A stretch of 36,231 nt of DNA from Helobdella robusta. Lineage: Eukaryota. Made by a program: the position numbers and the translations under genes. The DNA is taken from contig KB097558.1 in NCBI GenBank assembly GCA_000326865.1, positions 913,876 through 950,106 of the forward strand, written 5' to 3'. Positions 12,100-36,231 of the stretch are shown here, in pieces (within the stretch, counting starts at the first letter, position 1; the number at the start of each line of letters is the position of its first letter). The notes beneath the pieces were generated by a model that saw nothing but the letters and a program-made list of their open reading frames with translations, was not told where the DNA came from and did not search any database.

Positions 12100-13850
12100 C
12101 ATCCGAGTTTGTCAGTTTGAATTTTTGGAAAAATAATAGACCACTAACAAATGGAGACTTAATTTTAGTATTGATTTCTTGTCTCCTTCCTACCAAAATT
12201 TGATTAAAATGTTTCACGAGCGAAATATTTGCTGTGTGTATGGTTAAAATCTTCGACCGAGATTTGATACTTTTAGCATTTAAAGTTCACCAAAATGTGT
12301 GTTCAAACAGATCCTTACCCATCATTCCAATTTCGTTTCGTATTAAAATCTTCAACACCTACATCGTAACCTTCATCAAGCAATAATTTAGAATTCACGT
12401 ATATTTTTAAACATAAACAATTAATATTCCACAAAAAAGTAAACTTATAATGAAAAATATTGAAGAGAGTTAATGCACCAGCATTTAACAAACCATCCAA
12501 CCAAGGTAATAAAAATCTGCAAATTATATGCTATGATGCGTAAAAGCGAATTCAAGAGAAGCCGCCGAGAGTGGATGACGTCAATTTTTGCAGCAACCTC
12601 ATCTGGCCACACCTCACATACGATGAGTACAACTTTGTTCTTAAGTGGTGTTTCATGTTTGTAGGAACATTTGTACATTCTAGCTGCGTACAACCGCCAT
12701 CTGGTGACGTTGAAGAATGTTCAGCCTGTTGTGTTGGTTGAAAGTTGTTCTTCTCCATCTCCTCCTCCAACTTCTTCATCAATTCTTCTTCCTCCTCCAA
12801 ACTTCTTCCGTACTTCCCAAGTTGTCTTGTGGCCAGCCTGTAAAGGGTAGTATTGCATTCAGACATGAGTTCAAGTTTTGTAATAACTAATTTCAAATAA
12901 TAAGCGGTCAGTCCGGTTTTTAATGAAACTGTGTGAATCGCGTGCATTTCAATTTAAGAAGAGGCCAACAAAGCACATTAAGAGAAAATTCAATTTATTA
13001 AATACTGGAAAGATATTTGTCAAACGAGTTACCAGCGTGGTCATAAAATGTGAATCACTCAAGCTAGCTAAACCAGGGAATGCAAAGCTGAGAAAACCAC
13101 TCATCCAGAACGAATCATCAGGTTTTATAAAAATCATTTAAACGAAAAGATAAAATGAAATAAAGTGATGCAGAAAAATGACGGAACTTGTTGAGTAGCA
13201 TCTTGTAGGAATCAGGCAACTTCGACATGTTCTCTTCGTTGTTAAATTAAGTTTAATTAAAAATTTAATGAGCTTACCTTTCAACTAATTAATTACTATT
13301 AAATATAATTATCAGCTGTGTAGGACGCACTTAACGTTATTATGTTATAGACACCATTTTAGATGATACCTCTCATAACTGTGAAAAAAACATCTTAGTC
13401 GTAAGAAACGTTAACAACTAAGACAGTTGCACAAGTCCTCAATCTAATAATACGTTATAGTTATCAATTTTCAATCATTAAACTAATACTCAAAGGTACC
13501 AGCAGCATTCATGCAGCCAGCACACTTGAATACGCGTGAATCCGCGCACACACACGACACACGCGCGAGCGCACACACAAACAAACACAGCAGATGGAGA
13601 TTTCTTTACAGTCGAATCCAGTAACTACAACTGCGAGGCCAGGCATCTTACCTGCTGCACCACCTCACCACCCAGGCATATGGCACATATTAGATTTGAT
13701 TCAATGCCGATTGTGCCACCGACTAACCAAAGAGTAAGGAGTAATCATCCTCATCGTCTTCCTCTTCATCATCATCGTAACTTGTCATCATTTTACTTTT
13801 TACAAAATCATTAAACTCTTTTTCATTGCTGATTCTCATTACCTGTGATG
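12100..13850. repeat. Segmental duplication copy B (paralog of 340-1600) with a ~0.87 kb copy-specific insert at 12465-13345
   Basis: See copy A. The segment 12465-13345 has no counterpart between 1165 and 1200 of copy A. Confidence 0.7.
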
Positions 13851-13875: not shown

Positions 13876-14010
13876 GTCAATCAATCAACCGATCAATCAA
13901 TTAACTAACCAACCATTCATTCAACAAACCAACCAATCGATCAAATCGATCAATCAGTCTGTCAGTCAGTCAATCAACCTGTCCCCCAATCTCAACCAAC
14001 CAACCAACCA
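13876..14010. repeat. (CAAT/CAAC)n compound microsatellite
   Basis: caatcaatcaaccgatcaatcaa...caaccaaccaacc. Produces ORF 13826..14065. Confidence 0.9.
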
Positions 14011-22204: not shown

Positions 22205-23319
22205 AAAATTGTCAACTGAACGCCGAGTTTTTTTAAAAAATCATAATTGCCCGATCTTCTCGTATTAGAATTGATTTGTTGGTTTCGATGATTAATAAAA
22301 ATAATTTTTTGTGAGGTTTTTATATTTTCCTGGAAGTTTATGAAAATTTATTGCATTCATTTAAAATAAATACTACCCTTTGAAAATCGTTCTCTATTTT
22401 TTGTCATGAATTTCAAATTCATCTAGAGTTATAACATTTTTTTAATTTTTGCATCTAAAAGATAATTTTTTCAGTTGAATCCGAATGTCATATCAAAATA
22501 CAAACACGTATTTGTAATGAGACATAATTCTAAAATTTGACTGCTTCTAAAAGAAATATCAAGCACTGAAAACAATTGAATGTGGAGGTGAAGTTTTTCC
22601 GGCTGACAGTATTTCTAGCATCTTCCTGATGCTCACTGCGCACACTGTTCCAGGCAGAGCCATTTTTCCTTTCCCAAGCTGACTACGGGCTTCTGGTTAA
22701 ACTTTTTTTTGCCATACTGAACTGTGTTTCACAAAATGCATTGCTGCGAAGTATCAAATGTTGGTACGGGGTCTGTTCAGAGATGGAAATCTTTTTGTTG
22801 ATCAATTACTTGTTTCTTCAACTTGGAAATCTTACACCAATTTGTATCAAACATCACTGATATTGCAATGAAGTTGAAAAATAGTTGGTATTATTTATGT
22901 ATTTGTGTTAAAAATATCAAAGAAATTAGCTTTTGTGTGTGCAGGTATAAAAAATTTGAGGGCTTCAAACTTGTAAGTTATTAATAAGTTGCTATTTCAA
23001 TATTTCTCTATTCGATGTGCAAACCGCTGGAAAAATATGCGTCCCGGGTCGCGAGACATAAGGTAAGAAATTCGGGACTGTCCCGCTCAGTTCGGGAAGG
23101 TTGGCAACTTTATTTGCACGATTTGATTGAGCAAGTAGTAACTGTTATTGATTACAATTCGTTTATGTTATTTTATTCCACACTTTTAAGTTTCGACGAA
23201 ATGTTGTCGAAAGTTTTAGTTAATAAAAACTTCACTTTGCTACAATTTATTAAAAAAATTCACTATAAAACATTAAAATGCAAATATTTCAATTGATAGT
23301 CTTTAATGAAAATTTCATT

Positions 23320-23486
23320 TTACAAATTTTTTAAAACAAATTTATTTTTCCATATCCAGTAGGGGCAGAAGCTTCTGATGGTGTCGTTGGTGCAGCTGTT
23401 GACACAGCATTCGCATTCCAGGTTCATTGAATATCCATTTCTATAAACATGCATGGCTGATCTTACTTCTTTTCTTATGTCGTCGT
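23320..23486 (-). CDS. Insulin-like peptide exon 2 (C-peptide remainder and A-chain; stop at 23322-23320)
   Basis: Reads ..NLECECCVNSCTNDTIRSFCPYWIWKNKFVLKNL*. Acceptor preceded by the pyrimidine tract CTACCACATTCATTTTTAAG. Confidence 0.7.
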
Positions 23487-23742
23487 CTTAAAAATGAATG
23501 TGGTAGAATTATGCTTAAGTTTGAAGATTGAAAATTTTGGAAAAACCAAGTATACCGTCTATATGTGATAGAATCTCTCTAGCCTCCCTCCTCCACTCGT
23601 TACACACACTTGCGATCCTCGGCATCAAATCTTCGCACAAAGGCCTATCAAATTCCAAAGTCAGCCAATTGCATTCCTCGGCTCCGATTGATCCTGCGAT
23701 CAACAAGATGAGCAGCAAACTTTTTCTTGAACAACTCATCAT
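23320..23742 (-). CDS. Insulin-like peptide precursor gene (molluscan-insulin type, 8 Cys), 2 exons, 117 aa
   Basis: Exon 1 23556..23742 and exon 2 23320..23486, with a 69-nt phase-1 intron (donor GACG|GTATAC, acceptor CATTTTTAAG|AC). Product: MMSCSRKSLLLILLIAGSIGAEECNWLTLEFDRPLCEDLMPRIASVCNEWRREAREILSHID-D-DDIRKEVRSAMHVYRNGYSMNLECECCVNSCTNDTIRSFCPYWIWKNKFVLKNL. Hydrophobic signal-like N-terminus. B-chain-like C-x11-C-x10-C (CN..DRP..C........VC) followed by dibasic RR. A-chain signature CC-x3-C-x8-C with the extra Cys (CECC) characteristic of molluscan insulin-related peptides. Intron lies in the C-peptide region as in insulin-superfamily genes. ATTAAA 12 nt and AATAAA ~70 nt after the stop. 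Confidence 0.75.
23556..23742 (-). CDS. Insulin-like peptide exon 1 (signal peptide, B-chain, start of C-peptide)
   Basis: ORF 23515..23742 (-). Donor after codon D62 plus 1 nt. Confidence 0.75.
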
Positions 23743-23790
23743 CGTGTCTTCAATTACAACTGGCTTGAGATATATTCTCTTACAAAACTG

Positions 23791-23798
23791 CTTTTATA
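23791..23798 (-). promoter_or_regulatory. TATA box (TATAAAAG) of the insulin-like peptide gene
   Basis: The - strand reads CTATAAAAGCAGTTTTG. It sits 56 nt upstream of ATG 23742, implying a ~25-nt 5'UTR. Confidence 0.6.
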
Positions 23799-25668: not shown

Positions 25669-25833
25669 TCACTCATCCTCATCTTCTTCGTCACCCTCAT
25701 CACCTCTCCTCTTCTTACGTGGAGGCATGATACTTCCAGCGATGAGACCGTTGGCGGCGGTGAAGAGGTTGATTGGACTGTTGCCGTCTGTTATCAGGGT
25801 CGACTTGAGGCCAAGTGCTTGCAGAAGTTTAAC
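25669..25833 (-). CDS. MVP: MVP terminal exon ([24 protein letters not shown]...[12 protein letters not shown])
   Basis: Acceptor TTCGAACAG|GTT. Stop TGA. ORF 25669..25863. Confidence 0.85.
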
Positions 25834-28800
25834 CTGTTCGAAGCATGCAATTTTGTATGGCAATATGAAAAAAATGATTCGGAAACTACAAGGGTAACTG
25901 ATTCAAATGTTTCCACTGATTCAAAACTTTCTCAGATTCTCAAACTTAGATTCATCATAAAAAAAACGACGCCTGCCTCGTAAAAAGGCTCACAAATTTC
26001 ACTCAAACAAGTTTCATCATATCTGTAAATTTAAAAAATTCTGACAAAATAAACAATCCTAAACCACGTAAATATTCAGGATTGTATAACAGGTTAACGA
26101 TTTTACAATTCAAATCCACCACAAATCCTTCAAAATGCACCACGAATGCTTTACCTGCAGATCGGGACCGGCAGTAGCCATGGCAAGGAGGGTCTGCGAT
26201 CCGATGGCCTCCACCATGTTCTTGAACTTGGTCGTCTCAATTTCAGCCAGTTCGCGCTGCTTCTCAATTTCGAGATCGCGTTGTGAGGTGAGGTACTTCA
26301 GTTCGCCGTCACGAGCTTCTTCCAACCTCTCTCGTTCGCCTGCCTGTCATGCGTGGTTTCGTACTATTGAAACACTTTTGTTTTGTAAACGAAACTAAAA
26401 AATGATAGGTTCGAACATTTCCCGCCCCGAATGACTGCCTGCTTGTTAGACGCAGTTAATTCACGTCGTTAATATTTACAAATGGTGTCGACGATAAAAA
26501 TAACACTGCAATCATCTCAGTAAACACGTCGTCTATCGTCATTATCACCGAACGCCCTTAAATATTAAATAAACAAACAAAAAAATAAATGGATGGATGA
26601 ATAAATGAATTAATGAATAATTTACAAAAATAGTAAATAATATATGATAATGATGATTAACTAGCCACTGACCCATTCAATACTCTTGGCCTGTTTCTGC
26701 AGTTCAGCTTGCGTGACGGCAGCTTCGGCCTCAATCTTCATCGTCCAAAACTTGCTCTGAGCTTCCGCCTTCGCTAGTCCAGTGCTCTCAACAGCAGCAC
26801 TGCTCGCCTGCAGCTCCAGCAGCTCCTTCCTCGCCTTCTCTGCCTCCGCTTCGTCGCTGATCTTTTGTCGCTCCAGCTTTCCTCGAGCCTCTTGTTCCAG
26901 ACGTTCTGCCTCGTGTCTGGTGTTCATGGTTGGTGGATGAAAGTAAAGACGAATGAATGCGTGGGTGGTGGGTAAAATGAAGATGAATTAATGCGTGGGT
27001 GGTGAATAAGTATGATGAAAAACGATGAATGAATAGATAATTGGTAAAAAGAATGAATTTTAGATATATGAACGGAAGAAACTTGGAGTCAAAAAGAGAT
27101 AAAAAGAAAAAGTGAATTGACGGACGGACATATAACTTAAATGGAAAGTAGATGGATGCATCAACAAATGTGTTTCAAGTAAAAAATTAATAACAAACAT
27201 GTTCAACTTGTTTTTAAAAAATAAAAATCATTTATATTAAGTGACAATTTTAAACTAAATTCAATCAATCAATCAATGATCCTCCTTTGTCCATCAGTGG
27301 ACCGTCGAGGCCGATGGTGTACATCTTAGCATGCTTTTTACATTTCTTTTTTTCTTTCAAAAAACCTTTTTTATTTTTGGTCAGTTTTATTGAATTCAGA
27401 ATACCAACACCAATCCATTCAGTAATGTCATCTATCCATTTCTTTGCAGGTCTACCAACTTTTTTCTTCCAATCTCTTTTCCTCATTAGTACCATCTTAA
27501 TCAATTTGTCTTCCCTCATTCTACAAATGTGTTCCGAAAATCCCTATTTTCTTTCTATGACTTTGTCATATACACTTTTCTGTCTTCCAAGTTGATTTCC
27601 GATGATTTCGTTCTTTACTATCTGCTTCCAACACTTCATCTCAAATGCTTCCAATCCGTCTTTGCCTCTTTTCTTTATTGTCCATGTCTGCCAAGATACA
27701 CAAACTGGTCTACTTGTTCGCGTTTTTTGATTCTATCTGAAATTCCGCATTGTTTCTGCCTTTTCCCGTAATCATCACCTTCGTTTTGTCTATGTTGATA
27801 TGCAACCCGTGATCTTTTCCACCAACATGTGTTAGTTCAATTAGTTTCTGCAGACCTTCTTTTCTAGAAGCTAAAAGATCTATATCGTCTGCAAACCTGA
27901 GATCTTTGACAGTTCTTCTTTCTAAGTCAATTCCACACAATTCCGAATTTTCCATTTTTTCCATTGCTTTTTCTAACAATGCCATGAATAGTATTTGTGA
28001 TGTTGGATCGCCATGTCTGCTTCCAATGTCTGCCTTTATCCAATCCCCAAGTTCTGTACCTATTATTACCGACATTTTTGATTCTTCATAAAGCTCTTTC
28101 AGTACTTTGACCAGCTTTTCTGATGTCCTCATAATTTCTAACAAGCCTTCATGCCAGACAGAATCAAACGCTTTCTTAAAATCAACAAAGCAATGGTAGA
28201 TTGTCTGACCGCTACTTTTTGCATCTTCCATCAGCAGTCTCAACATGAGAATATAGGCAACAAACGACGAACAGTTATAGAAGAAAATAGTGCACTTTTT
28301 AAAACAACAGTTAAGAATGATCAAGCAGAAAATCGGAGTGTCAGATAACGACTCCGACCTTTTGTAATAAAGTATAACAAAGAAGAAATAATGAGCAGCA
28401 CTGAATGAGCAATGGACGTGAAACAAAGAAGAAGAACAAACAATACCTAGCAGCAGCCTCTTGGGAGTTGGTTGTGATTTCGATGGCTAGTTGGACAGAT
28501 TTTTGGAGAGCATCTCTCGTCCTCTGGTCGACTGGTTCAACGGACTGAATGTCGATGCTAGTGAAGATCAATCCGTTCTGAGTGAATATGAACTTGTCTC
28601 GCACCTTCCTGTTCTCGTCCACACCGAACACTGAAGCTCTGATGATCCTCGCTGAGTTCTGAGGTGAGGGATTCATCCGATGGATCGTTGCATGGTTTTT
28701 AGGTTGGTTGGATAAAAGGCTTGCATCATAAAGAAGATGAAATGATAATGATAAACGAAAAATGGCTCAAAAATATTCCATAAACGATATTTTTAGTGCC

Positions 28801-31800
28801 ATTATCATTCAAATGCACAGTAAAAAAGTGCTAAAAATGAAAGAACCAATCACCAACAACAAGCAGTCTTATCCCAACAAACAAATAAACAAACGAACCA
28901 ACCAACCCACCAACCAACCAAACAAACAAATAAACAAACAAAACAAGCAAAAAAACCTTGTGGAAGTCATCAAACTGAACACTGGCAACTGATCCTCTGA
29001 TTCTGGAGGCGATGGCCTTGCAGGCATCTCCCACAAAGTCTGGAACACTGAACAACTTGGCCGCCTCTGCCTCCGACCGTGCATCCGGGTCGAAGTGCCT
29101 GGTGAGGTTTGAAGACGGGGATGAAATTAATCGTCACACAATAAAAGTACTCAAGAGCGAGATCCTGAAATGCGGACAGTTAAAAGAAACGGACAGTATC
29201 GCTCTGCTCGGAACTGTTTTGTATGTTAAATTGTCCATACAGAGCGGACTTTTTGAAGTAACGGCATGCGGACATGCTTTTTGGTACAAAGTAACTTTTA
29301 AGTCTTAAAGAGCGGACAATTTATAACAAAAATGCGCTAATAAGGCATTATTAATTTTTGTTTCGCCTTTCAAGAAGTTTCTTTTCGCTTTATTTACCGT
29401 GATCTCGTTTCTTTCGTCGTTAATAAAACGCTCACCATTGATGATGGTGTTGTAAGTGAAAAAATTCGTGACCTTGAAAGAAAAAAATAGGTACCAGTTG
29501 TGCCAGAGATTCGATAGTGGAATTAGCATCAGAAAGATTGCTGGGAAATTTCAATGAGAACAAATCAATATGCAAACATTCGCGAAAACAAAGAAACTAT
29601 TAAACGGTAATAGAGATCAAATCAAAATGAGGAAGAAGATGGCACCGGAATATGCCAGGAAACTTAAATATTATTTAAACCGTAAAGGCACAGAAGAAAT
29701 GTTTAAATTTTCTGAATAAATTGAATTGAAAATATTTTAGAAAATGAGATATTTAAAACAATTTGTAATGCGAAACAACCATCAAACATTTTTTGGCAAA
29801 ATAAAAATGTATGAAAAAGCTGTTATTTTGTTTTACTCGTAGAAAAACAATATTCGAATATGAAAATTGAAGTTTAATGTTGAGGCTTCAGAAGAGGACA
29901 GTTCAGAGAAGCGGAGAGTTTGAGTCTTCCCCGTCGGTGTCCTCTCTTGAAGACTTTTACTGTAAATCATTTTGCCACAATTTAATCAATGCCATGTTCA
30001 CATTAATTGATGGCTACGTAAATATAACGCCATAAAATTAACGTTACGTTGCCATACGCAAGGTACATCAAGAAAGGTTTAGAAGGATGAAGCACACAAA
30101 CATTGAAAATAACAACGCCAACAATGACGAAGCTAACCAGTTGTAGGAGAGTTGTAGCTGCAGCCTGGCGTGGTCGGCCGTCTCAACGACGATGACGTCA
30201 GTCATAAAGTCAGGTCCCAACAACAAACACAACGACTTGATCTGGTTGGGCTTCTTTGGTTTGCCACCTGACAGACTCAGCTGAGTGAAAGCTTCATCGG
30301 GACCCAGCATCACCAGCTCTGGTCCGAACACCACCCTGTTCAAAATGACGATGATGGTGGTGGTGACTGGTGAGTTAGTTTTTATGAGGATGAAGATGAT
30401 GACGACGATAGCGGCAATGATAATAAAATAAATAAAACCATCACCATCACTCATGTCCCGGCTCTACCTAAGCAACAATTGTTTCGATTGCAATGATCCA
30501 ACAAACAAGTTTAGTTACAACTTCAGCACAAAAATCACCAAATCAGCAAATCTTCCGACCACAACACCACACATCACACACACCTGGCCTTCTTCTCCTT
30601 GTAATCATAGATCTGTACAGCAGCATTATGGGGCACTCTGAATGTAATGACCTTCGATTTATCTCTGGACTTTTTCACTTCACCCGCCCCTCTGGCACCC
30701 CTGTCAGCCAAGGGGTCATGGTCAAGGAGGAGTAGGGCCTCAACATTAGGTGGGAGTTCTTTAGAGAAGAGTTCTTCATCTTGGTTGAGCATGTACGTCT
30801 CGCCGATGATGGCTCTAACCTGTTCGTAAGTTGAGTTATGGAACGGTCTCTAGTGGCTTTGCATGTATGTATTAATGCTGCTTGTGGAAAAAAGAATAAT
30901 AATAATAATTTAAAACACCCGTGAGTTGAAAAACGGTTAACGTGGAAACATTTAAAAGCATCAATCACAGCACCAACTGAAACATAACAGACTAGACAGC
31001 TGCAAGAACATTAAAGCAACAACAGCAGCGTTGACCACTTCAACATCTGAATCAGTGCTATTGCAAGGTGCTAACAAAATCAAAAATATCAAATCATGAA
31101 CAGAAACAACAACAATGACCACCAGAATCAACAATATTCAACAACAATACAACGATAAACAACAATAATCAGCCACAACAAACAACATCTAACAACAATA
31201 AACAGCCGCAACAGCGTCGCACCTTCCCGGTTTTAACGTTCCTGACATAGATACCCTCATTCTCATCGAGAGGGATGGCCGACCTTTTCGTGACGACCTC
31301 AATTTCAACTGGAGGGATGTACTCAACTGGACCGCGGATCATCCAGCGGTCGCCAGGCTTGCGTTCCTTGTCCTGTGTGATGATGAGGATGTGATGATGG
31401 TGACGATGTGATGATGAGGATGACAATCTGATGAGGATGGTGATATTTGTGATGATGTTGGTGTTAATAGTGGTAATGATGGCGATGATGAATAAGATGA
31501 TTACGATTACGAGATGAAAATAGGTAAAATATAATGTATGATGAAAATGAACCAGCCAGCCAGCCAGCCAGCCAGCCAGTCGGCCAACTAACCAGCCAGC
31601 CAGCCAGCCAATCAATTAATCAAACAAGCAGCCAATCAAACAATTATTCAATCCAATTGCATCAGTCAACTGACTCTGTCCATGAATCCTTCATTGGCCC
31701 GCAGTATGAGACCCTCATCCTCGCCCAGCACAAACACATTCTGAATCCCCTTCTCTAGCGTCTCCCCTGGCGTCAAAATGTTAATTCCAATCAATTAGGT

Positions 31801-34800
31801 TAAAACACTTTTCAAAAATGTTTCTGACTCATTTGCGATGTATAACTGAAAGTTAATAATTAAATTAAATTGTAATTAAATTAAATTATAATTATAATTA
31901 AAACTACTCACGCACACACACAAACACAGACACACACAAACACACACACACACCCAGACAGACCAGGTTGTAGGAAAAATGACTTCTCCCCCTTCACCAA
32001 CTTCTTCTTGCCCAGCTGGGGCATGCCCTTATCATCGACGGGGTCTAGGATCACGCAGTATTGTCGGTTGGTCAGTGTTGTTATGTGAACCTCACCAATC
32101 ACCTGCGGCAATCAGGGGTTGCATAAATTATTATAATTAGTTGTTTGTCAGTCATCATGCAAAGTATGGAAAATGATGTAACAACCTGCAGTAGGTTCAT
32201 ACGTGCTAACAATTGGATTTTCAAAAATAAGGCAAAAAAATGAAAGATTTGTTTTTTACTACGATAATAGTCCTTGATATTTTTGTGTATAACCGTTATA
32301 AATAAAGTTGACAATTAAATAAACGATGTAATTTTCTTTTGTTGTTTCGTTAGAATCATAATCACCATCAATATTGCAATTAAACTAGTTAAAATGTCGT
32401 CATTCTAAAGCTTTCTTTGATGTGTCTTGTTAGGATCATTATTATTACTGATATGACAATGAATTTGAAAATTAGTTGGTTTGATTGATGTACATGTCTT
32501 TGAAAACGATCTGCATGTTTATATTTATAAGTTTTAGTTGCTTGAAAAAAAAATTAATTAAAAAAAAGTAATTTTTTAATTTTATAAATCATAACACAAG
32601 CAAAGAGTACATTTTTTGATGAAAAAAACCGAGTTGAACGTTAAAAGAACCTGCTCATAGACGTTGGGTATATGTGCCTCCGTGTCAGTCGACTTGATCA
32701 ACCACTCCTCTCCATTCCTCCTCGTCACGCCGAAGTCATCTTTGAAGGTCTTCAGTGCCCTCACGTGCAGGGCGGTCTGGTGGTGGAAGTCGAATGAAAG
32801 GTGTGAAGCAAGACATAATTTAAAATTAATAGAAAATACTCTAAGCTAGCATTACCTTAATAATGTTTGATACATCTAACTTGATCTTTATATTATCAAA
32901 CAAGAATAATAACAATTAAAAAATATGTTTTTTCAAAAACATACTATGTACATTTTTAATTTCATCTCATTATAATTCTCGAAAAAATTTATTTTTCAAC
33001 CAGACAACCAAGAATCAGAATTCTTTAAATCAAATCTAAATGACAGTCTGACATGAAAAAACAATCAAAATATTTCAAAGATGTATTTGTTGCAGCCACA
33101 AAATTGTGATGAAATGAAAGCCAGCCAGCCAGCCTAAAAAGTACAAACCTTATCATTGAGGACTTGTGCATAGACTACCTCAACCACCTCCTCATATGCA
33201 CCTGGCAGGTAGGCCCCCGTCCTCTTCACCAACCACTCCTCTCCTGTGACTCGGGGGTGGCCCTCGCGATCGATGCACTCCTTGCGAGCCCTCAGTCTGA
33301 TGGCCTGATTGGCTAGGATCACCGTGGCTCCAATGGACTGCTCGATAACGACTTCTTTGCGAGGGATGTATGTTCCTGGACGAAAATGCAGTTGAATTGT
33401 TGTGCTCATTTAATGTTCTATGAATCTTTTATGAATTATTCGTTTGCAAAGTGCTAATTTATGCAACTGAAATGATTTTGAAAGCATTTATTTAAATCAA
33501 ATGAGAATTTAAAACGAGCTTAAATAAACATATTTGAGTAATTTATAATTTAGTTTCTTTTAGTTTCTTTCAATCCTAAGTAATTGAAAATTTCAGGTTT
33601 TAGCAAGTACAATGGACAACAAGTCAGATGGACAACACAACACATCAGAAGGACAACACATTACATCAGATGGACGACAACCACACATCAAAAAGACAAC
33701 ACTTCATATTTTAAATGGTCCTTTAGGGCAGGAATCTCAAAAGGAAATGCTACACTTCCACAGTGGTTGGCAAGAATGTGTTTGATTGTGTGTACGAATT
33801 TTGAAGAGTGTTCCTCATTCAAAATATGCATGATGAATAATAAAAATTAAATAACAATATTGCCTGTATGCAAAAACTGAAAAAAAAGGTTAGGCGTTTC
33901 AATCTTGGATCACCAACCAAGTCTTGAGAAGACAAAATTTGAGAAAGAAACTTCAATTTAAAGATCTGATGATGAGAACATACAAGGTAAACACGAAATA
34001 AACAGAAAACCGAACTAATCATCAGCAGATAAAAAGAATTAAAATAAAAATAAGACATCTAAGTTAACATTCAATGGCCCTTTCTTTATAAGAAAGTTTG
34101 GCGTGAGAAATAAAGAATAAAACCAGTTTAGTGTCTCTAGCTGTCAATGAATTAATGAATAATAAATGAGAAGCTACACTAAGGGAGGAATGCAAACTGC
34201 ACGAGCTGAGAACAATGAAAAATGAAATATTGAAAATGTTAATTAGGCATTTCAAGTGTGGTGCAAGGCAAGGCGGTTTTATTTAAAAGCCACGAGGTGC
34301 AAGGATCAATTACTAACAATATCAAATTAAAACTTCGCATTTCAATGGTGTTACAATGAAATTTTGTTGTTTTATATCAATCATACGGTGCTGTATAATA
34401 TATATTAAAAAGTAACAAGATATCTACTTTGTTATATACTCAATGAGATCATAAAAATCTGAGAAACAGATGGCAAATGAAACACAACAAGCAAGCATTC
34501 AACAAGAAAGATATATTTCTAACTATTACTTTCATAGTACAAACATAAGCAGCAAGTTAAAATGCTATTCAAATTGATATAGAAAATAATTTTCATATCA
34601 AAAACATCAAGAAGAACATTCAGTTGAAAATGAACACACTAGAACCAGAAACAAATACTGCCAGCCAAATCAACAACCACAAACAAAGACAGACCAATAT
34701 TTTAAAAAATGATGAAACAAAAAAATCTACAAAGATAAACAAATATGAGAACAAATGTATAATAACATTTATAATAACAAGTCACAGAACCAACAATCAC

Positions 34801-35195
34801 AAAGATTAACAAATAAATTTAGCAGCATCACCAACAACAAAGAAGCCAAAGTAAAAAAAACAATGGAAGGCCAACCAGGTCCTTCAAAGAGCCACTCATC
34901 ACCAGCAGTTCGTTTCTCTCCAATGTCATCTTCAAAATCCAAGATGGCTCTGAGACGAAGAGCAGTGTTGGCGACAACGATTTTCAACTCAGATACTTGT
35001 TGCTTCAGAATTTCTCCGGGCCAAAGAGGAAATGGATCCTGAGCCAATCGAACGTCGAGGTCAGCGTGACACAATTTCACCTGACCATTGGCATCAAGAA
35101 CGACTCTTCCATCCTTGTCCTTAACAGTCGGGTTTTCAACGACGCAGTAGTGGCGAGGAGGAATTGTTATCATGCGCTCAGGGCCCAGAATAACT
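25669..35195 (-). CDS. MVP: Major vault protein (MVP) gene; 13 coding exons in the window, 5' coding exon(s) beyond the window end
   Basis: Exons (- strand): 34876..35195, 33149..33375, 32651..32776, 31964..32102, 31675..31766, 31223..31372, 30584..30819, 30138..30335, 28957..29098, 28447..28658, 26673..26916, 26155..26343, 25669..25833 (stop TGA 25671-25669). All donors are GT and all acceptors AG, with consistent phases. The concatenated product is collinear with vertebrate MVP from ..PMRMVTVPPRHYC to the C-terminus: [209 protein letters not shown], the coiled-coil region, and [13 protein letters not shown]. Confidence 0.92.
26155..26343 (-). CDS. MVP: MVP exon ([48 protein letters not shown]...AGPDLQ)
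   Basis: Acceptor CATGACAG|GCA. An alternative at 26318 would shorten a ~16-aa excess relative to vertebrate MVP. Donor CAG|GTAAAG. ORF 26110..26325. Confidence 0.7.
26673..26916 (-). CDS. MVP: MVP exon (coiled-coil region: [20 protein letters not shown]...[12 protein letters not shown])
   Basis: Acceptor ACCAG|A. Donor TGG|GTCAGT. An alternative donor AAGA|GTATTG 12 nt upstream is possible. ORF 26661..26927. Confidence 0.7.
27258..28240 (-). mobile_element. 5'-truncated non-LTR retrotransposon (RTE-like LINE) fragment inside an MVP intron
   Basis: ORF 27710..28426 (-) carries the RT motifs [27 protein letters not shown] and [10 protein letters not shown] frameshifted tail ORF 27265..27519 has [23 protein letters not shown] (RTE-type C-terminus). 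The element ends in an (ATTG)n microsatellite at ~27258-27280. Confidence 0.8.
28447..28658 (-). CDS. MVP: MVP exon ([12 protein letters not shown]...[33 protein letters not shown])
   Basis: Acceptor CCTCACCTCAG|AAC. Donor AG|GTATTG. ORF 28341..28676. Confidence 0.85.
28876..28954. repeat. (CAAAC/CCAA)n microsatellite in an MVP intron
   Basis: caaacaaataaacaaacgaaccaaccaacccaccaaccaacc... Produces ORF 28762..28992. Confidence 0.85.
28957..29098 (-). CDS. MVP: MVP exon ([48 protein letters not shown])
   Basis: Acceptor CTCACCAG|G. Donor AAG|GTTTTT. ORF 28831..29055. Confidence 0.85.
30138..30335 (-). CDS. MVP: MVP exon (RVVFGPELV...[16 protein letters not shown])
   Basis: Acceptor TTTTGAACAG|G. 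Donor TG|GTTAGC. ORF 30068..30454. Confidence 0.85.
30584..30819 (-). CDS. MVP: MVP exon ([24 protein letters not shown]...[17 protein letters not shown])
   Basis: Acceptor CGAACAG|GTT. Donor AG|GTGTGT. ORF 30574..30792. Confidence 0.85.
31223..31372 (-). CDS. MVP: MVP exon ([21 protein letters not shown]...NVKTGK)
   Basis: Acceptor CATCACACAG|GAC. Donor AAG|GTGCGA. Lies within ORF 31169..31615, whose N-terminal part is intronic (CCAG)n microsatellite. Confidence 0.85.
31551..31610. repeat. (CCAG)n microsatellite in an MVP intron
   Basis: ccagccagccagccagccagccagtcggcc... Produces the GWLAGWL part of ORF 31169..31615. Confidence 0.9.
31675..31766 (-). CDS. MVP: MVP exon ([31 protein letters not shown])
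   Basis: Acceptor TTTTGACGCCAG|GG. Donor AGA|GTCAGT. Falls below the ORF-track size threshold; found by frame continuity. Confidence 0.7.
31964..32102 (-). CDS. MVP: MVP exon ([22 protein letters not shown]...FFLQP)
   Basis: Acceptor TTGCCGCAG|GTG. Donor CCTG|GTCTGT. ORF 31908..32111. Confidence 0.85.
32651..32776 (-). CDS. MVP: MVP exon ([11 protein letters not shown]...NVYEQ)
   Basis: Acceptor CCACCACCAG|ACC. Donor CAG|GTTCTT. ORF 32582..32764. Confidence 0.8.
33149..33375 (-). CDS. MVP: MVP exon (GTYIPRKEV...VLNDK)
   Basis: Acceptor TCGTCCAG|GA. Donor AAG|GTTTGT. ORF 33134..33409. Confidence 0.85.
34876..35195 (-). CDS. MVP: MVP exon ([17 protein letters not shown]...GDEWLFEGP)
   Basis: Acceptor AATCAG|A at 35197-35196 follows an in-frame TGA. 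Donor CCTG|GTTGGC. ORF 34769..35173. Confidence 0.85.
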
Positions 35196-35849: not shown

Positions 35850-36231
35850 TCAACAGCGCTCCTCAATGAATTTTGAAAACAGATGGGTCTTGAGATCCGC
35901 TTTGAACTTCGCAAGCGATGGAGAAATAGTTAGAGAAGTAGGTAGAGAGTTCCAGAGAAAAGGACCAGAAAAAGCAAAAGCAGATTTGGCAAAAGAGTGT
36001 TTAACACGAGTTAAGAAAAAGCGAGAAGAAGAAGACGATCGTAAACTGGGGCGTTTAGGTTCAATTAATATATCTGATAAGTACTTAGGAAATAATTTAG
36101 ATTGAGACTTATACATGAACGTGCAAATTTTAAAAATTATTCTATATTTTATAGGTAGCCAGTGCAAGAGAACAAGATATGGAGATATATGAGAAAAGAA
36201 AGGGGCACGAGCAACTAGACGAGCAGCAGAG
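35850..36231 (-). mobile_element. 3' terminal portion of a non-LTR retrotransposon ORF (conserved tail LHWLPIKYRIIFKI...LWNSLP...LKTHLF), truncated by the window end
   Basis: ORF 35850..36167 (-) is open to the window edge. The motif pattern LHWLP-x-RI-FKI, YLSD(I/L)L, RSLRSS, LWNSLP and FK..LKTHLF is, by my recollection, widespread at the C-terminus of metazoan LINE ORF2-like proteins. It lies where MVP intron 1 is expected. Confidence 0.5.

What the first reader, a model, noticed from the sequence alone, without database searches (positions are those of the whole stretch)
23246..23798. Compact 2-exon insulin-like peptide gene of the molluscan 8-cysteine (CECC) type with its own TATA promoter
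Every part of an insulin-superfamily gene is visible in one ~550-bp locus on the - strand. There is a TATAAAAG 56 nt upstream of an ATG. The ORF opens with a hydrophobic signal-like segment (KSLLLILLIAGSIG). A B-chain-like block follows with cysteines spaced C-x11-C-x10-C (EECNWLTLEFDRPLCEDLMPRIASVC). A dibasic RR comes next, then a 69-nt phase-1 intron in the presumptive C-peptide. The second exon ends with ECECCVNSCTNDTIRSFC, which is exactly the CC-x3-C-x8-C insulin A-chain signature plus one extra Cys. The total of 8 Cys, with CECC in the A-chain and an extra N-terminal B-chain Cys in a CN...DRP context, is the arrangement I recall for molluscan insulin-related peptides (Lymnaea MIPs, Aplysia insulin). 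It does not match vertebrate insulin/IGF/relaxin. ATTAAA and AATAAA signals follow the stop. The gene lies 1.9 kb downstream of MVP on the same strand.
Basis: partly seen in the sequence, partly recalled or inferred. Interest (0 to 1): 0.85.

Follow-up and report, generated by a model that had tools for sequence, protein, structure and literature searches.

The report
Divergent leech insulin-like peptide gene
This is a real, compact two-exon gene for a secreted insulin-family hormone precursor in a leech genome, of the eight-cysteine type common in worms and molluscs; its first half (the B chain) is unusually diverged, and a near-identical gene is already catalogued in the leech Helobdella robusta.

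Summary
On the minus strand, ATG 23742, exon 1 (23742-23556), a 69-nt GT..AG phase-1 intron and exon 2 (23486-23320) give a 117-aa precursor: signal peptide, a three-Cys block, RR, a spacer, then CECCVNSCTNDTIRSFC.

It is not a chance ORF. The CxCC-x3-C-x8-C motif is expected 0.003 times per window. A 116-aa Helobdella robusta protein (HELRODRAFT_180010, UniRef "Insulin-like domain-containing protein") is 89% identical with the same splice junction and all eight mature Cys.

A profile of nine real lophotrochozoan CECC-type insulin-like peptides (leech, earthworm, molluscs, bryozoan, brachiopod) matches the spacer end plus A chain: hhalign 92%, E 6e-7. A phase-1 intron in the C domain is typical of insulin genes.

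Caveats:
- The natural precursor is below Pfam thresholds (Insulin 11.5-12 bits against 23). Reference leech and earthworm peptides pass at 29-34.
- The B-chain block shows no profile similarity beyond its cysteines.
- Its spacing is C-x10-C with no Gly. All nine references have C-x11-C.
- The TATA and poly(A) motifs are common in this AT-rich DNA.
- Structure prediction failed.

Verdict: a new, divergent member of a known kind. The "molluscan type" is really the general lophotrochozoan type.

The parts
23791..23798 (-). TATAAAAG motif 56 nt upstream of the ATG; a candidate TATA box, unverified
   Evidence: TATAAA occurs about every 750 nt per strand in this window, so it is weak evidence on its own.
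23683..23742 (-). Start codon and predicted signal peptide, residues 1-20 (MMSCSRKSLLLILLIAGSIG); predicted cleavage G20|A21
   Evidence: A basic n-region (R6, K7) is followed by a hydrophobic core at residues 8-16 with Kyte-Doolittle mean up to 3.27. Ser at -3 and Gly at -1 fit the -3/-1 rule; I applied this rule by hand, not with SignalP. The segment is identical in H. robusta from residue 5.
23593..23682 (-). B-chain-like block, residues 21-50 (AEECNWLTLEFDRPLCEDLMPRIASVCNEW), with Cys24, Cys36 and Cys47 spaced C-x11-C-x10-C
   Evidence: It is 30/30 identical in H. robusta. It scores -0.1 bits against the reference B-chain profile, which is not above shuffles. MAFFT places a one-residue gap at the Gly position after the second Cys. 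phmmer aligns DLMPRIASVC with the INS-6 B helix KLISLVMAVC.
23587..23592 (-). Dibasic RR (residues 51-52); the putative convertase site that ends the B chain
   Evidence: It is RK in H. robusta, so the basic pair is kept. Cleavage is inferred, not shown.
23487..23555 (-). 69-nt phase-1 intron (GTATAC...TTTTTAAG) in the C-peptide region
   Evidence: GC is 0.261. A TAA sits immediately upstream of exon 2 in the exon-2 frame, so no acceptor further upstream can keep the frame. The H. robusta protein has the same junction. A phase-1 intron in the C domain is typical of insulin genes (PMC8286064, PMC11863921).
23440..23586 (-). C-peptide-like spacer, residues 53-78, interrupted by the intron at 23487-23555. 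It contains RK67-68 and ends at Arg78.
   Evidence: In the profile alignment and in BLASTP against Lymnaea MIP-I, Arg78 aligns with the Arg of the KR site that precedes the A chain in reference peptides. Here the site is monobasic (YR). hhalign coverage starts at residue 58.
23362..23439 (-). A-chain core, residues 79-104 (NGYSMNLECECCVNSCTNDTIRSFCP), with C-x-CC-x3-C-x8-C and a conserved N-x-T sequon at Asn96
   Evidence: The motif lies at 23365-23415. hhalign gives 92%, E 6e-7. My own HMM scores it 21.2 bits, reached by 0/2000 full shuffles and 13/2000 Cys-fixed shuffles.
23320..23361 (-). C-terminal tail, residues 105-117 (YWIWKNKFVLKNL), and the TAA stop (23320-23322)
   Evidence: It differs from H. 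robusta at 4 of 13 residues. Reference peptides also carry variable tails after the last Cys.
23246..23307 (-). Candidate poly(A) signals: ATTAAA (23307-23302) and AATAAA (23251-23246)
   Evidence: These hexamers occur every 445-600 nt per strand here, so they are unverified.

Best explanation
The locus is a functional gene for a secreted insulin-superfamily prepropeptide. It belongs to the eight-cysteine (CxCC A-chain) type found across lophotrochozoans. It is orthologous to Helobdella robusta HELRODRAFT_180010, so the window most likely comes from a closely related glossiphoniid leech.

Shown:
- the two-exon structure with a phase-1 intron in the C domain;
- a hydrophobic N-terminal signal-like segment;
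- eight cysteines conserved between two species;
- significant profile similarity of the C-peptide end plus A chain to genuine CECC-type insulin-like peptides.

Inferred by homology:
- The signal peptide is removed after Gly20.
- The chain folds with four disulfides: Cys36-Cys90 (B7-A7), Cys47-Cys103 (B19-A20), Cys89-Cys94 (A6-A11) and the extra pair Cys24-Cys87.
- Convertases cut after RR51-52, and before the A chain at Arg78 (monobasic, aligned with the usual KR) or at RK67-68.
- The two-chain peptide is released from neuroendocrine cells and activates an insulin-receptor-type tyrosine kinase to control growth, metabolism or reproduction.

The B chain is strongly remodelled. It has one residue fewer between the two canonical cysteines, Glu instead of Gly after the first of them, and a Pro inside the predicted helix. 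Receptor specificity or potency may therefore differ from canonical leech insulin-like peptides.
For: - Ortholog: 89% identity over 116 aa, the same exon junction, and all eight mature Cys conserved. UniRef names it 'Insulin-like domain-containing protein'.
- The A-chain motif is expected 0.003 times per window by chance.
- hhalign of the two orthologs against nine real CECC-type insulin-like peptides gives probability 92.1%, E 6.1e-7, over query residues 58-104.
- My own HMM of that region scores the window 21.2 bits and H. robusta 24.7 bits. This is reached by 0/2000 full shuffles and 13/2000 shuffles with Cys fixed.
- The top Pfam hit (Ins_beta E 0.009; Insulin E 0.62) and all four PDB sequence hits (INSL3, DILP5, INS-6) for the natural precursor are insulin-family. 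So are the six best PDB hits for the des-C construct.
- An artificial construct without the C-peptide reaches Ins_beta 21.7 bits, E 2e-4, extending into the B helix. Its phmmer score against INS-6 is E 0.011.
- BLASTP against Lymnaea MIP-I gives E 4e-7. The B half of that query was verified; the A half is from memory.
- The phase-1 intron in the C domain matches the family rule stated in PMC8286064 and PMC11863921.
- Substitutions between the orthologs are unevenly spread: 0/46 in residues 5-50 against 12/67 in residues 51-117, Fisher p = 0.0014, on a post hoc partition. This argues for constraint.
Against: - The natural precursor is below Pfam gathering scores: PF00049 11.5-12 bits against 23, and PF03488 16.4-17 against 21. 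The ortholog scores 16.1 on PF00049. Reference leech, earthworm and mollusc peptides pass at 28.8-34 bits over the whole model.
- The B-chain block scores -0.1 bits against the reference B-chain profile, no better than shuffles.
- Its C-x10-C spacing and missing Gly depart from all nine references.
- The KR site before the A chain is replaced by YR.
- AlphaFold2 models are low-confidence (pLDDT 42.6 and 59.9), and Foldseek finds no insulin fold.
- There is no transcript, peptide or receptor evidence.
- Neutral divergence between the two species is unknown, so 89% identity alone does not prove purifying selection.
- An exhaustive HMM search of 1.84 billion representatives found no relative other than the ortholog.
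Confidence: 0.8

Rival explanations
1. It is a genuine insulin-superfamily gene whose product no longer works as a classical insulin-receptor agonist hormone. The remodelled B chain would reflect neofunctionalisation. Possible roles are a receptor antagonist or decoy, a ligand for another receptor class, an uncleaved IGF-like single chain, or an exocrine peptide (for example from the proboscis or salivary glands).
For: - The B chain has no detectable similarity to reference B chains, has C-x10-C, lacks Gly and contains Pro41. Yet it is 100% conserved between the two species.
- The KR site before the A chain is lost, leaving YR.
- Canonical compact CECC-type peptides that pass Pfam exist in another leech. 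A divergent paralog with a different role is therefore plausible.
- The review PMC12702675 lists 'Insulin-like 1-4' for H. robusta and Capitella, which suggests several paralogs.
Against: - There are no expression or receptor data of any kind.
- The cysteine number and order still allow the standard four-disulfide insulin fold.
- The hydrophobic pattern L39/I43/V46 fits the B11/B15/B18 core positions once one residue is deleted (my reading).
- Insulin-like peptides are generally fast-evolving, so divergence alone does not imply a new function.
Confidence: 0.12
2. It is a secreted cysteine-rich protein unrelated to insulin. By convergence it carries a CC-x3-C-x8-C motif, and the 'B chain' is simply a different N-terminal domain.
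For: - Similarity is confined to about 47 residues.
- With Cys positions fixed, 13/2000 shuffles still reach the A-chain score.
- The B-chain profile score is null.
- Pfam thresholds are not met.
- Structure prediction did not recover an insulin fold.
Against: - Similarity extends beyond the cysteines into the C-peptide end, and Arg78 aligns with the KR site.
- The phase-1 intron sits exactly where insulin genes have theirs (PMC8286064).
- Three N-terminal Cys plus five C-terminal Cys is exactly the lophotrochozoan insulin-like arrangement, and the first spacing (x11) is within the reference range.
- The best sequence hits in two independent libraries are insulin-family.
Confidence: 0.05
3. 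It is a chance ORF pair or a decaying pseudogene, with no expressed product.
For: - There is no transcript evidence.
- The TATA and poly(A) motifs are common here.
- The window has 67 mechanical ORFs of at least 70 aa.
- The divergence time between the two species is unknown.
Against: - The motif is expected 0.003 times per window.
- The reading frame, splice junction, stop position and all eight Cys are intact in two species, and substitutions are non-uniform.
- Exon GC is clearly above intron GC.
Confidence: 0.03

Closest known systems
Helobdella robusta hypothetical protein HELRODRAFT_180010 (XP_009027027.1 / ESN94905.1; UniRef100_T1FFC5, 'Insulin-like domain-containing protein')
   Same: It is 89% identical over 116 aa. 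It has the same signal peptide, an identical B-chain block, the same exon junction, all eight mature Cys, a basic pair after the B chain, RK67-68, Arg78, the N-x-T sequon and a 13-residue tail.
   Different: There are 12 substitutions plus one fewer N-terminal Met. The window's Cys4 in the signal peptide is Ser there. The window's exact sequence is absent from the 15-billion-protein collection, so this is another species or strain, or an unannotated paralog. The H. robusta entry has only an automatic name; I found no paper citing its accessions.
[quoted passage not shown]
   Same: - They share the order signal peptide, three-Cys B chain, C-peptide, five-Cys A chain.
- The A chain is CECC-x3-C-x8-C.
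- The extra B-chain Cys lies 9-14 residues upstream of the canonical first Cys (x11 here).
- Erpobdella has a similarly compact gene (585 bp, 116 aa).
- Profile similarity covers the C-peptide end and A chain (motif also stated in PMC5996578).
   Different: - All nine references have C-x11-C and eight of nine have Gly after the second Cys. The window has C-x10-C and Glu.
- The references' invariant A-chain Glu and Tyr (..E...YC) are Thr and Phe here.
- KR before the A chain is YR here.
- The references pass Pfam PF00049 at 28.8-34 bits; the window does not.
C. elegans INS-6 (PDB 2KJI, 8TK9 chain B) and the Pfam family Ins_beta (PF03488)
   Same: INS-6 is the best solved-structure sequence match. 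The B-helix segment and the A chain align (ECCVNSCTNDTIRSFC against ECCGNQCSDDYIRSAC). Ins_beta is the best Pfam hit.
   Different: The nematode beta-type places its extra disulfide differently: a Cys three residues after B19 and a CC at the A-chain end, visible in the INS-6 sequence. It is a single short chain without a cleaved C-peptide, which is my own knowledge. The score is below the Pfam cut-off for the natural precursor.

Membership tests
Insulin/IGF/relaxin superfamily (Pfam PF00049) | Whole-protein score at or above the Pfam gathering threshold (23 bits) | tested here: not met
   The window scores 11.5-12 bits (E 0.44-0.62), on the A-chain half only. The H. robusta ortholog scores 16.1 bits. 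Reference leech, earthworm and mollusc peptides score 28.8-34 bits over model positions 2-81.
Insulin/IGF/relaxin superfamily | A-chain cysteine signature CC-x3-C-x8-C (PROSITE-style pattern CC-{P}-{P}-x-C-[STDNEKPI]-x3-[LIVMFS]-x3-C; pattern recalled from memory) | tested here: met
   CCVNSCTNDTIRSFC at residues 89-103 matches, as does CCVKSCTNNTIRGFC in the ortholog. Chance expectation for CC-x3-C-x8-C is 0.05 per window.
Insulin/IGF/relaxin superfamily | B-chain C-x11-C, usually with Gly after the first of these Cys | tested here: not met
   The window has C36-x10-C47 with Glu37. All nine references have x11 and eight have Gly. The alternative register C24-x11-C36 puts polar residues and a Pro at helix core positions; this is my reading.
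Insulin/IGF/relaxin superfamily | Phase-1 intron within the C-domain coding region | tested here: met
   The 69-nt intron follows codon position 1 of residue 63, between RR51-52 and the A chain. The rule is stated in PMC8286064 and PMC11863921.
Insulin/IGF/relaxin superfamily | N-terminal signal peptide | tested here: met
   There is a basic n-region and a hydrophobic core at residues 8-16, with S-I-G before the predicted cut. This is a heuristic; no dedicated predictor was available.
Insulin/IGF/relaxin superfamily | Basic convertase sites on both sides of the C-peptide (for two-chain members) | tested here: inconclusive
   RR51-52 (RK in the ortholog) follows the B chain. Before the A chain there are only RK67-68, which is 18 residues before the first A-chain Cys, or the monobasic Arg78, which aligns with the usual KR.
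Insulin/IGF/relaxin superfamily | Three-helix insulin fold with A6-A11, A7-B7 and A20-B19 disulfides | tested here: inconclusive
   AlphaFold2 gave pLDDT 42.6 for the precursor and 59.9 for the des-C construct. Foldseek against the PDB gave no hit with E below 7.
Insulin/IGF/relaxin superfamily | Binding to or activation of an insulin-receptor kinase or a relaxin-type GPCR | not testable with these tools
   This needs synthetic or recombinant peptide and receptor assays.
Lophotrochozoan eight-cysteine (CxCC / MIP-type) insulin-like peptides | A chain C-x-CC-x3-C-x8-C, plus an extra B-chain Cys 9-14 residues N-terminal to the first canonical Cys | tested here: met
   The window has CECCVNSCTNDTIRSFC and C24-x11-C36. 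The motif definition is in PMC5996578.
Lophotrochozoan eight-cysteine (CxCC / MIP-type) insulin-like peptides | Profile similarity to known members across both chains | tested here: inconclusive
   For the C-peptide end plus A chain, hhalign gives 92.1%, E 6e-7, and my HMM gives 21.2 bits against 0/2000 shuffles. For the B chain the score is -0.1 bits, which 350-473 of 2000 shuffles reach.
Nematode beta-type insulins (Pfam PF03488 Ins_beta) | Score at or above 21 bits, and the beta-type positions of the extra cysteines | tested here: not met
   The natural precursor scores 16.4-17 bits. Only the artificial des-C construct reaches 21.7. The extra Cys positions differ from those of INS-6.
Dilp7-type peptides | [quoted passage not shown] | tested here: not met

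The most novel reading that the evidence does not exclude
This would be a Helobdella-lineage insulin-like peptide whose B chain has been rebuilt: a helix one residue shorter between the two canonical cysteines, no Gly-B8 equivalent, and an internal Pro. The B chain is nevertheless frozen between species (30/30 identical). That could mean a changed receptor-binding mode, such as an antagonist, a ligand for a different receptor, or an exocrine peptide aimed at prey. The link to prey is my own recollection that Helobdella feeds on snails, together with the reference data showing that molluscan insulins share the CECC framework.
Probability: 0.1. Interest if true: 0.6.

Novelty: new member of a known kind. 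Interest (0 to 1): 0.3.

Why it matters
The gene adds a verified member to the small set of annelid insulin-like peptide genes. It shows that a real family member can fall below Pfam thresholds while keeping the A-chain framework and the diagnostic intron. This is a reminder that short, fast-evolving hormone genes are easily missed by automatic annotation.

The one-residue deletion in the otherwise fixed C-x11-C B-chain spacing is a natural variant. It could inform structure-function work on how much the insulin B helix tolerates. Beyond that it is an ordinary neuroendocrine gene, and its ortholog is already in public databases.

Tried and rejected
- **Word-indexed protein search and exhaustive HMM search of 1.84 billion representatives.** Only the H. 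robusta ortholog was found. The second hit, P0002, is a 554-aa tandem-repeat artefact that adds up nine weak stretches. I rejected it.
- **AlphaFold2.** I ran the two-sequence alignment (pLDDT 42.6) and a C-peptide-deleted construct (pLDDT 59.9). Foldseek against the PDB on the latter gave only E of 7 or more, to helical bundles. This tells us nothing about the fold.
- **The look-up of encoding contigs.** Nothing was on record, so there is no DNA for synteny or dN/dS and no transcript contigs.
- **The search for related loci in metagenome contigs.** 68 pattern matches, none confirmed.
- **MVP exon search, meant to gauge species distance.** The best hit was 79% identical and no named H. robusta MVP was returned. 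The source species remains inferred from the insulin-like ortholog alone.
- **Veenstra 2011,** the paper that predicted H. robusta insulin-like peptides, is not held. I could not check whether this gene is among them. No held paper cites the ortholog's accessions.
- **A second CC-x3-C-x8-C match at 13548-13592 (-).** It lies in (CA)n-type low-complexity sequence and has no upstream B-chain block. Rejected.
- **Alternative B-chain register (C24-x11-C36 as the canonical pair).** I considered it and judged it less likely, because it puts Thr, Asp and Pro at helix core positions. MAFFT, phmmer and BLASTP all align Cys47 with the last B-chain Cys.
- **The sigma-70 promoter and terminator scan** is irrelevant for a eukaryotic gene.
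Full report
**Observation.**

TATAAAAG lies at 23798-23791, 56 nt before an ATG at 23742. Exon 1 is a 187-nt open stretch to 23556. A 69-nt GT..AG intron follows (23555-23487). Exon 2 is a 167-nt stretch ending in TAA (23486-23320).

The spliced CDS is 354 nt and encodes 117 aa: MMSCSRKSLLLILLIAGSIGAEECNWLTLEFDRPLCEDLMPRIASVCNEWRREAREILSHIDDDDIRKEVRSAMHVYRNGYSMNLECECCVNSCTNDTIRSFCPYWIWKNKFVLKNL. The intron is phase 1. A TAA codon sits directly upstream of exon 2 in its frame, so the AG at 23488-23487 is the most upstream acceptor that keeps the frame.

Exon GC (0.455 and 0.371) exceeds intron GC (0.261). The last MVP exon stops at 25669 on the same strand, and MVP identity is confirmed by Pfam on two exons. 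The '1.9 kb downstream of MVP' statement is therefore correct.

**Is it more than chance?**

In 300 first-order Markov resamplings of the window, translated in six frames, CC-x3-C-x8-C appeared 0.05 times per window. The full CxCC-x3-C-x8-C appeared 0.003 times. The only other match in the real window, at 13548-13592, is low-complexity sequence.

The TATA and poly(A) hexamers are not informative. TATAAA occurs about every 750 nt per strand and AATAAA about every 445 nt in this 34% GC sequence.

**Ortholog and source organism.**

The word-indexed search of 5.8 billion proteins returned one hit: Helobdella robusta HELRODRAFT_180010. It is 116 aa, 89% identical, E 1.9e-64, and UniRef names it 'Insulin-like domain-containing protein'. 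It has the same exon junction, all eight mature cysteines, a basic pair after the B-chain block, RK67-68, Arg78 and the same stop position.

The window's exact protein is not in the 15-billion-sequence collection. The window is therefore most likely from a different but closely related leech. An unannotated paralog cannot be excluded.

Differences between the two proteins are unevenly spread: none in residues 5-50 and 12 in residues 51-117 (Fisher p = 0.0014, post hoc partition). An exhaustive HMM search of 1.84 billion cluster representatives found no further relative; the only other hit is a tandem-repeat artefact.

**Family assignment.**

Against Pfam, the natural precursor gives only sub-threshold matches, and the top one is insulin-family. 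Ins_beta scores 16.4-17 bits against a cut-off of 21. Insulin PF00049 scores 11.5-12 bits against a cut-off of 23. The ortholog scores 16.1 bits on PF00049. Weak PDB sequence hits are the INSL3 A chain, the DILP5 A chain and C. elegans INS-6.

Removing the C-peptide in silico raises Ins_beta to 21.7 bits (E 2e-4), with the alignment extending into the B helix. phmmer against INS-6 then gives E 0.011, aligning DLMPRIASVC with KLISLVMAVC and ECCVNSCTNDTIRSFC with ECCGNQCSDDYIRSAC. These constructs are artificial, so they count only as supporting evidence.

For a proper comparison I took real sequences from Dataset S4 of PMC11863921. They are two Erpobdella octoculata (leech) peptides, two from Lumbricus, one from Bugula, two from Gigantopelta, one from Lingula and one further sequence that looks molluscan, whose header I did not see. 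I aligned them.

All nine have a B chain of C-x9..14-C-x11-C and an A chain of CECC-x3-C-x8-C. Eight of nine have Gly after the second Cys. The four I scanned (two from leech, one from earthworm, one from mollusc) pass PF00049 at 28.8-34 bits across the whole model.

The eight-cysteine 'CECC' framework is therefore the general lophotrochozoan type, not a molluscan speciality. PMC5996578 already hinted at this with Lingula.

hhalign of the two Helobdella orthologs against this alignment gives probability 92.1%, E 6.1e-7, over query residues 58-104.

HMMs I built from the reference alignment gave these scores:

| Profile region | Window score | H. robusta score | Full shuffles reaching window score | Cys-fixed shuffles reaching it |
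|---|---|---|---|---|
| C-peptide end plus A chain | 21.2 bits | 24.7 bits | 0/2000 | 13/2000 |
| B chain | -0.1 bits | -0.2 bits | 350/2000 | 473/2000 |

The second half of the protein is demonstrably insulin-like beyond its cysteines. The first half is insulin-like only in position, cysteine count and the first spacing.

BLASTP against Lymnaea MIP-I gives E 4e-7 with CECC...C...CP aligned.

**Gene structure as evidence.**

[quoted passage not shown] PMC11863921 shows the same for relaxin-type and Dilp7-type genes. [quoted passage not shown] The window gene has the phase-1 C-domain intron and lacks the phase-2 intron. This fits the insulin/relaxin/octinsulin structure and excludes the Dilp7 type.

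**What is unusual.**

- The canonical B-chain spacing is one residue short. It is C36-x10-C47, against x11 in all nine references.
- The residue after Cys36 is Glu, not Gly.
- Pro41 lies in the expected helix.
- MAFFT places the gap at the Gly position. With that gap, Leu39, Ile43 and Val46 fall on the B11, B15 and B18 core positions. This last point is my inference.
- The alternative register (C24-x11-C36 as the canonical pair) puts Thr, Asp and Pro at core positions. No aligner supports it.
- The references' invariant A-chain Glu and Tyr are Thr98 and Phe102 here.
- The KR that precedes the A chain in the references aligns with Tyr77-Arg78. Cleavage there would be monobasic; the next dibasic site upstream is RK67-68.
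- An N-x-T sequon at Asn96, inside the A chain, is conserved in both orthologs.

**Mechanism (inferred).**

- The signal peptide is cleaved after Gly20.
- Oxidative folding forms Cys36-Cys90, Cys47-Cys103, Cys89-Cys94 and the extra Cys24-Cys87.
- A convertase cuts after RR51-52, and at Arg78 or RK67-68.
- The secreted peptide acts on an insulin-receptor-type kinase.

None of these steps is shown here. Two AlphaFold2 runs were low-confidence (pLDDT 42.6 and 59.9), and Foldseek found nothing meaningful.

**Novelty.**

Annelid insulin-like peptides have been predicted since Veenstra 2011 (cited in PMC12702675; the paper itself is not held). The H. robusta ortholog is in NCBI and UniProt with an automatic insulin-like label. 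No held paper cites its accessions.

The window gene is therefore a new, divergent member of a known kind. The remodelled yet conserved B chain is the only feature of wider interest. It leaves a small probability of a changed receptor-binding mode or role.

Noticed in passing
window 7559-7720 (-): A complete U1 spliceosomal snRNA gene (Rfam RF00003, 106.7 bits, E 3.9e-26, model positions 1-166 of 166).
   Followed up: no
window 8097-8170 (+): A tRNA-Gln (anticodon CTG) gene about 400 nt from the U1 gene. Both ARAGORN and Rfam find it.
   Followed up: no
window 8838-9077 (+): An ORF fragment with a caspase domain (Pfam Peptidase_C14, E 1.6e-12). It is probably one exon of a caspase gene on the plus strand.
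   Followed up: no
window 25669-35173 (-): A multi-exon major vault protein gene. The N-terminal exon at 34769-35173 matches Vault_2 and Vault, another exon at 33134-33409 matches Vault, and the last exon ends ...[18 protein letters not shown] at 25669. A search with the first exon returned no named H. robusta MVP; the best hit was 79% identical. I cannot explain this.
   Followed up: partly
window 27710-28426 (-): A reverse-transcriptase fragment (Pfam RVT_1, E 1.1e-15) lies inside an MVP intron. It is presumably a non-LTR retrotransposon remnant. A further ORF at 35850-36167 (-) looks like a retroelement ORF2 tail from memory, but it has no Pfam hit.
   Followed up: no
window 4333-4450: A near-perfect 39-nt tandem repeat (3 copies, 98% matches). 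On the minus strand it encodes repeated ...HDHAIDEEKETKE... units within an 87-aa ORF.
   Followed up: no
window 13877-13977, 28876-28956, 31552-31610 and others: Tetranucleotide microsatellites (TCAA, AACA, CCAG) and AC/CA runs create long spurious ORFs rich in TNQP or LAGW. One of them produces the chance CC-x3-C-x8-C match at 13548-13592.
   Followed up: partly
window 23404-23412 (-), residues 96-98 of the peptide: There is an N-x-T glycosylation sequon inside the A chain, between the A11- and A20-equivalent cysteines. It is conserved in the H. robusta ortholog as NNT. From my own knowledge, A-chain glycosylation is known in crustacean androgenic-gland insulin-like hormones. I did not investigate this further.
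   Followed up: no
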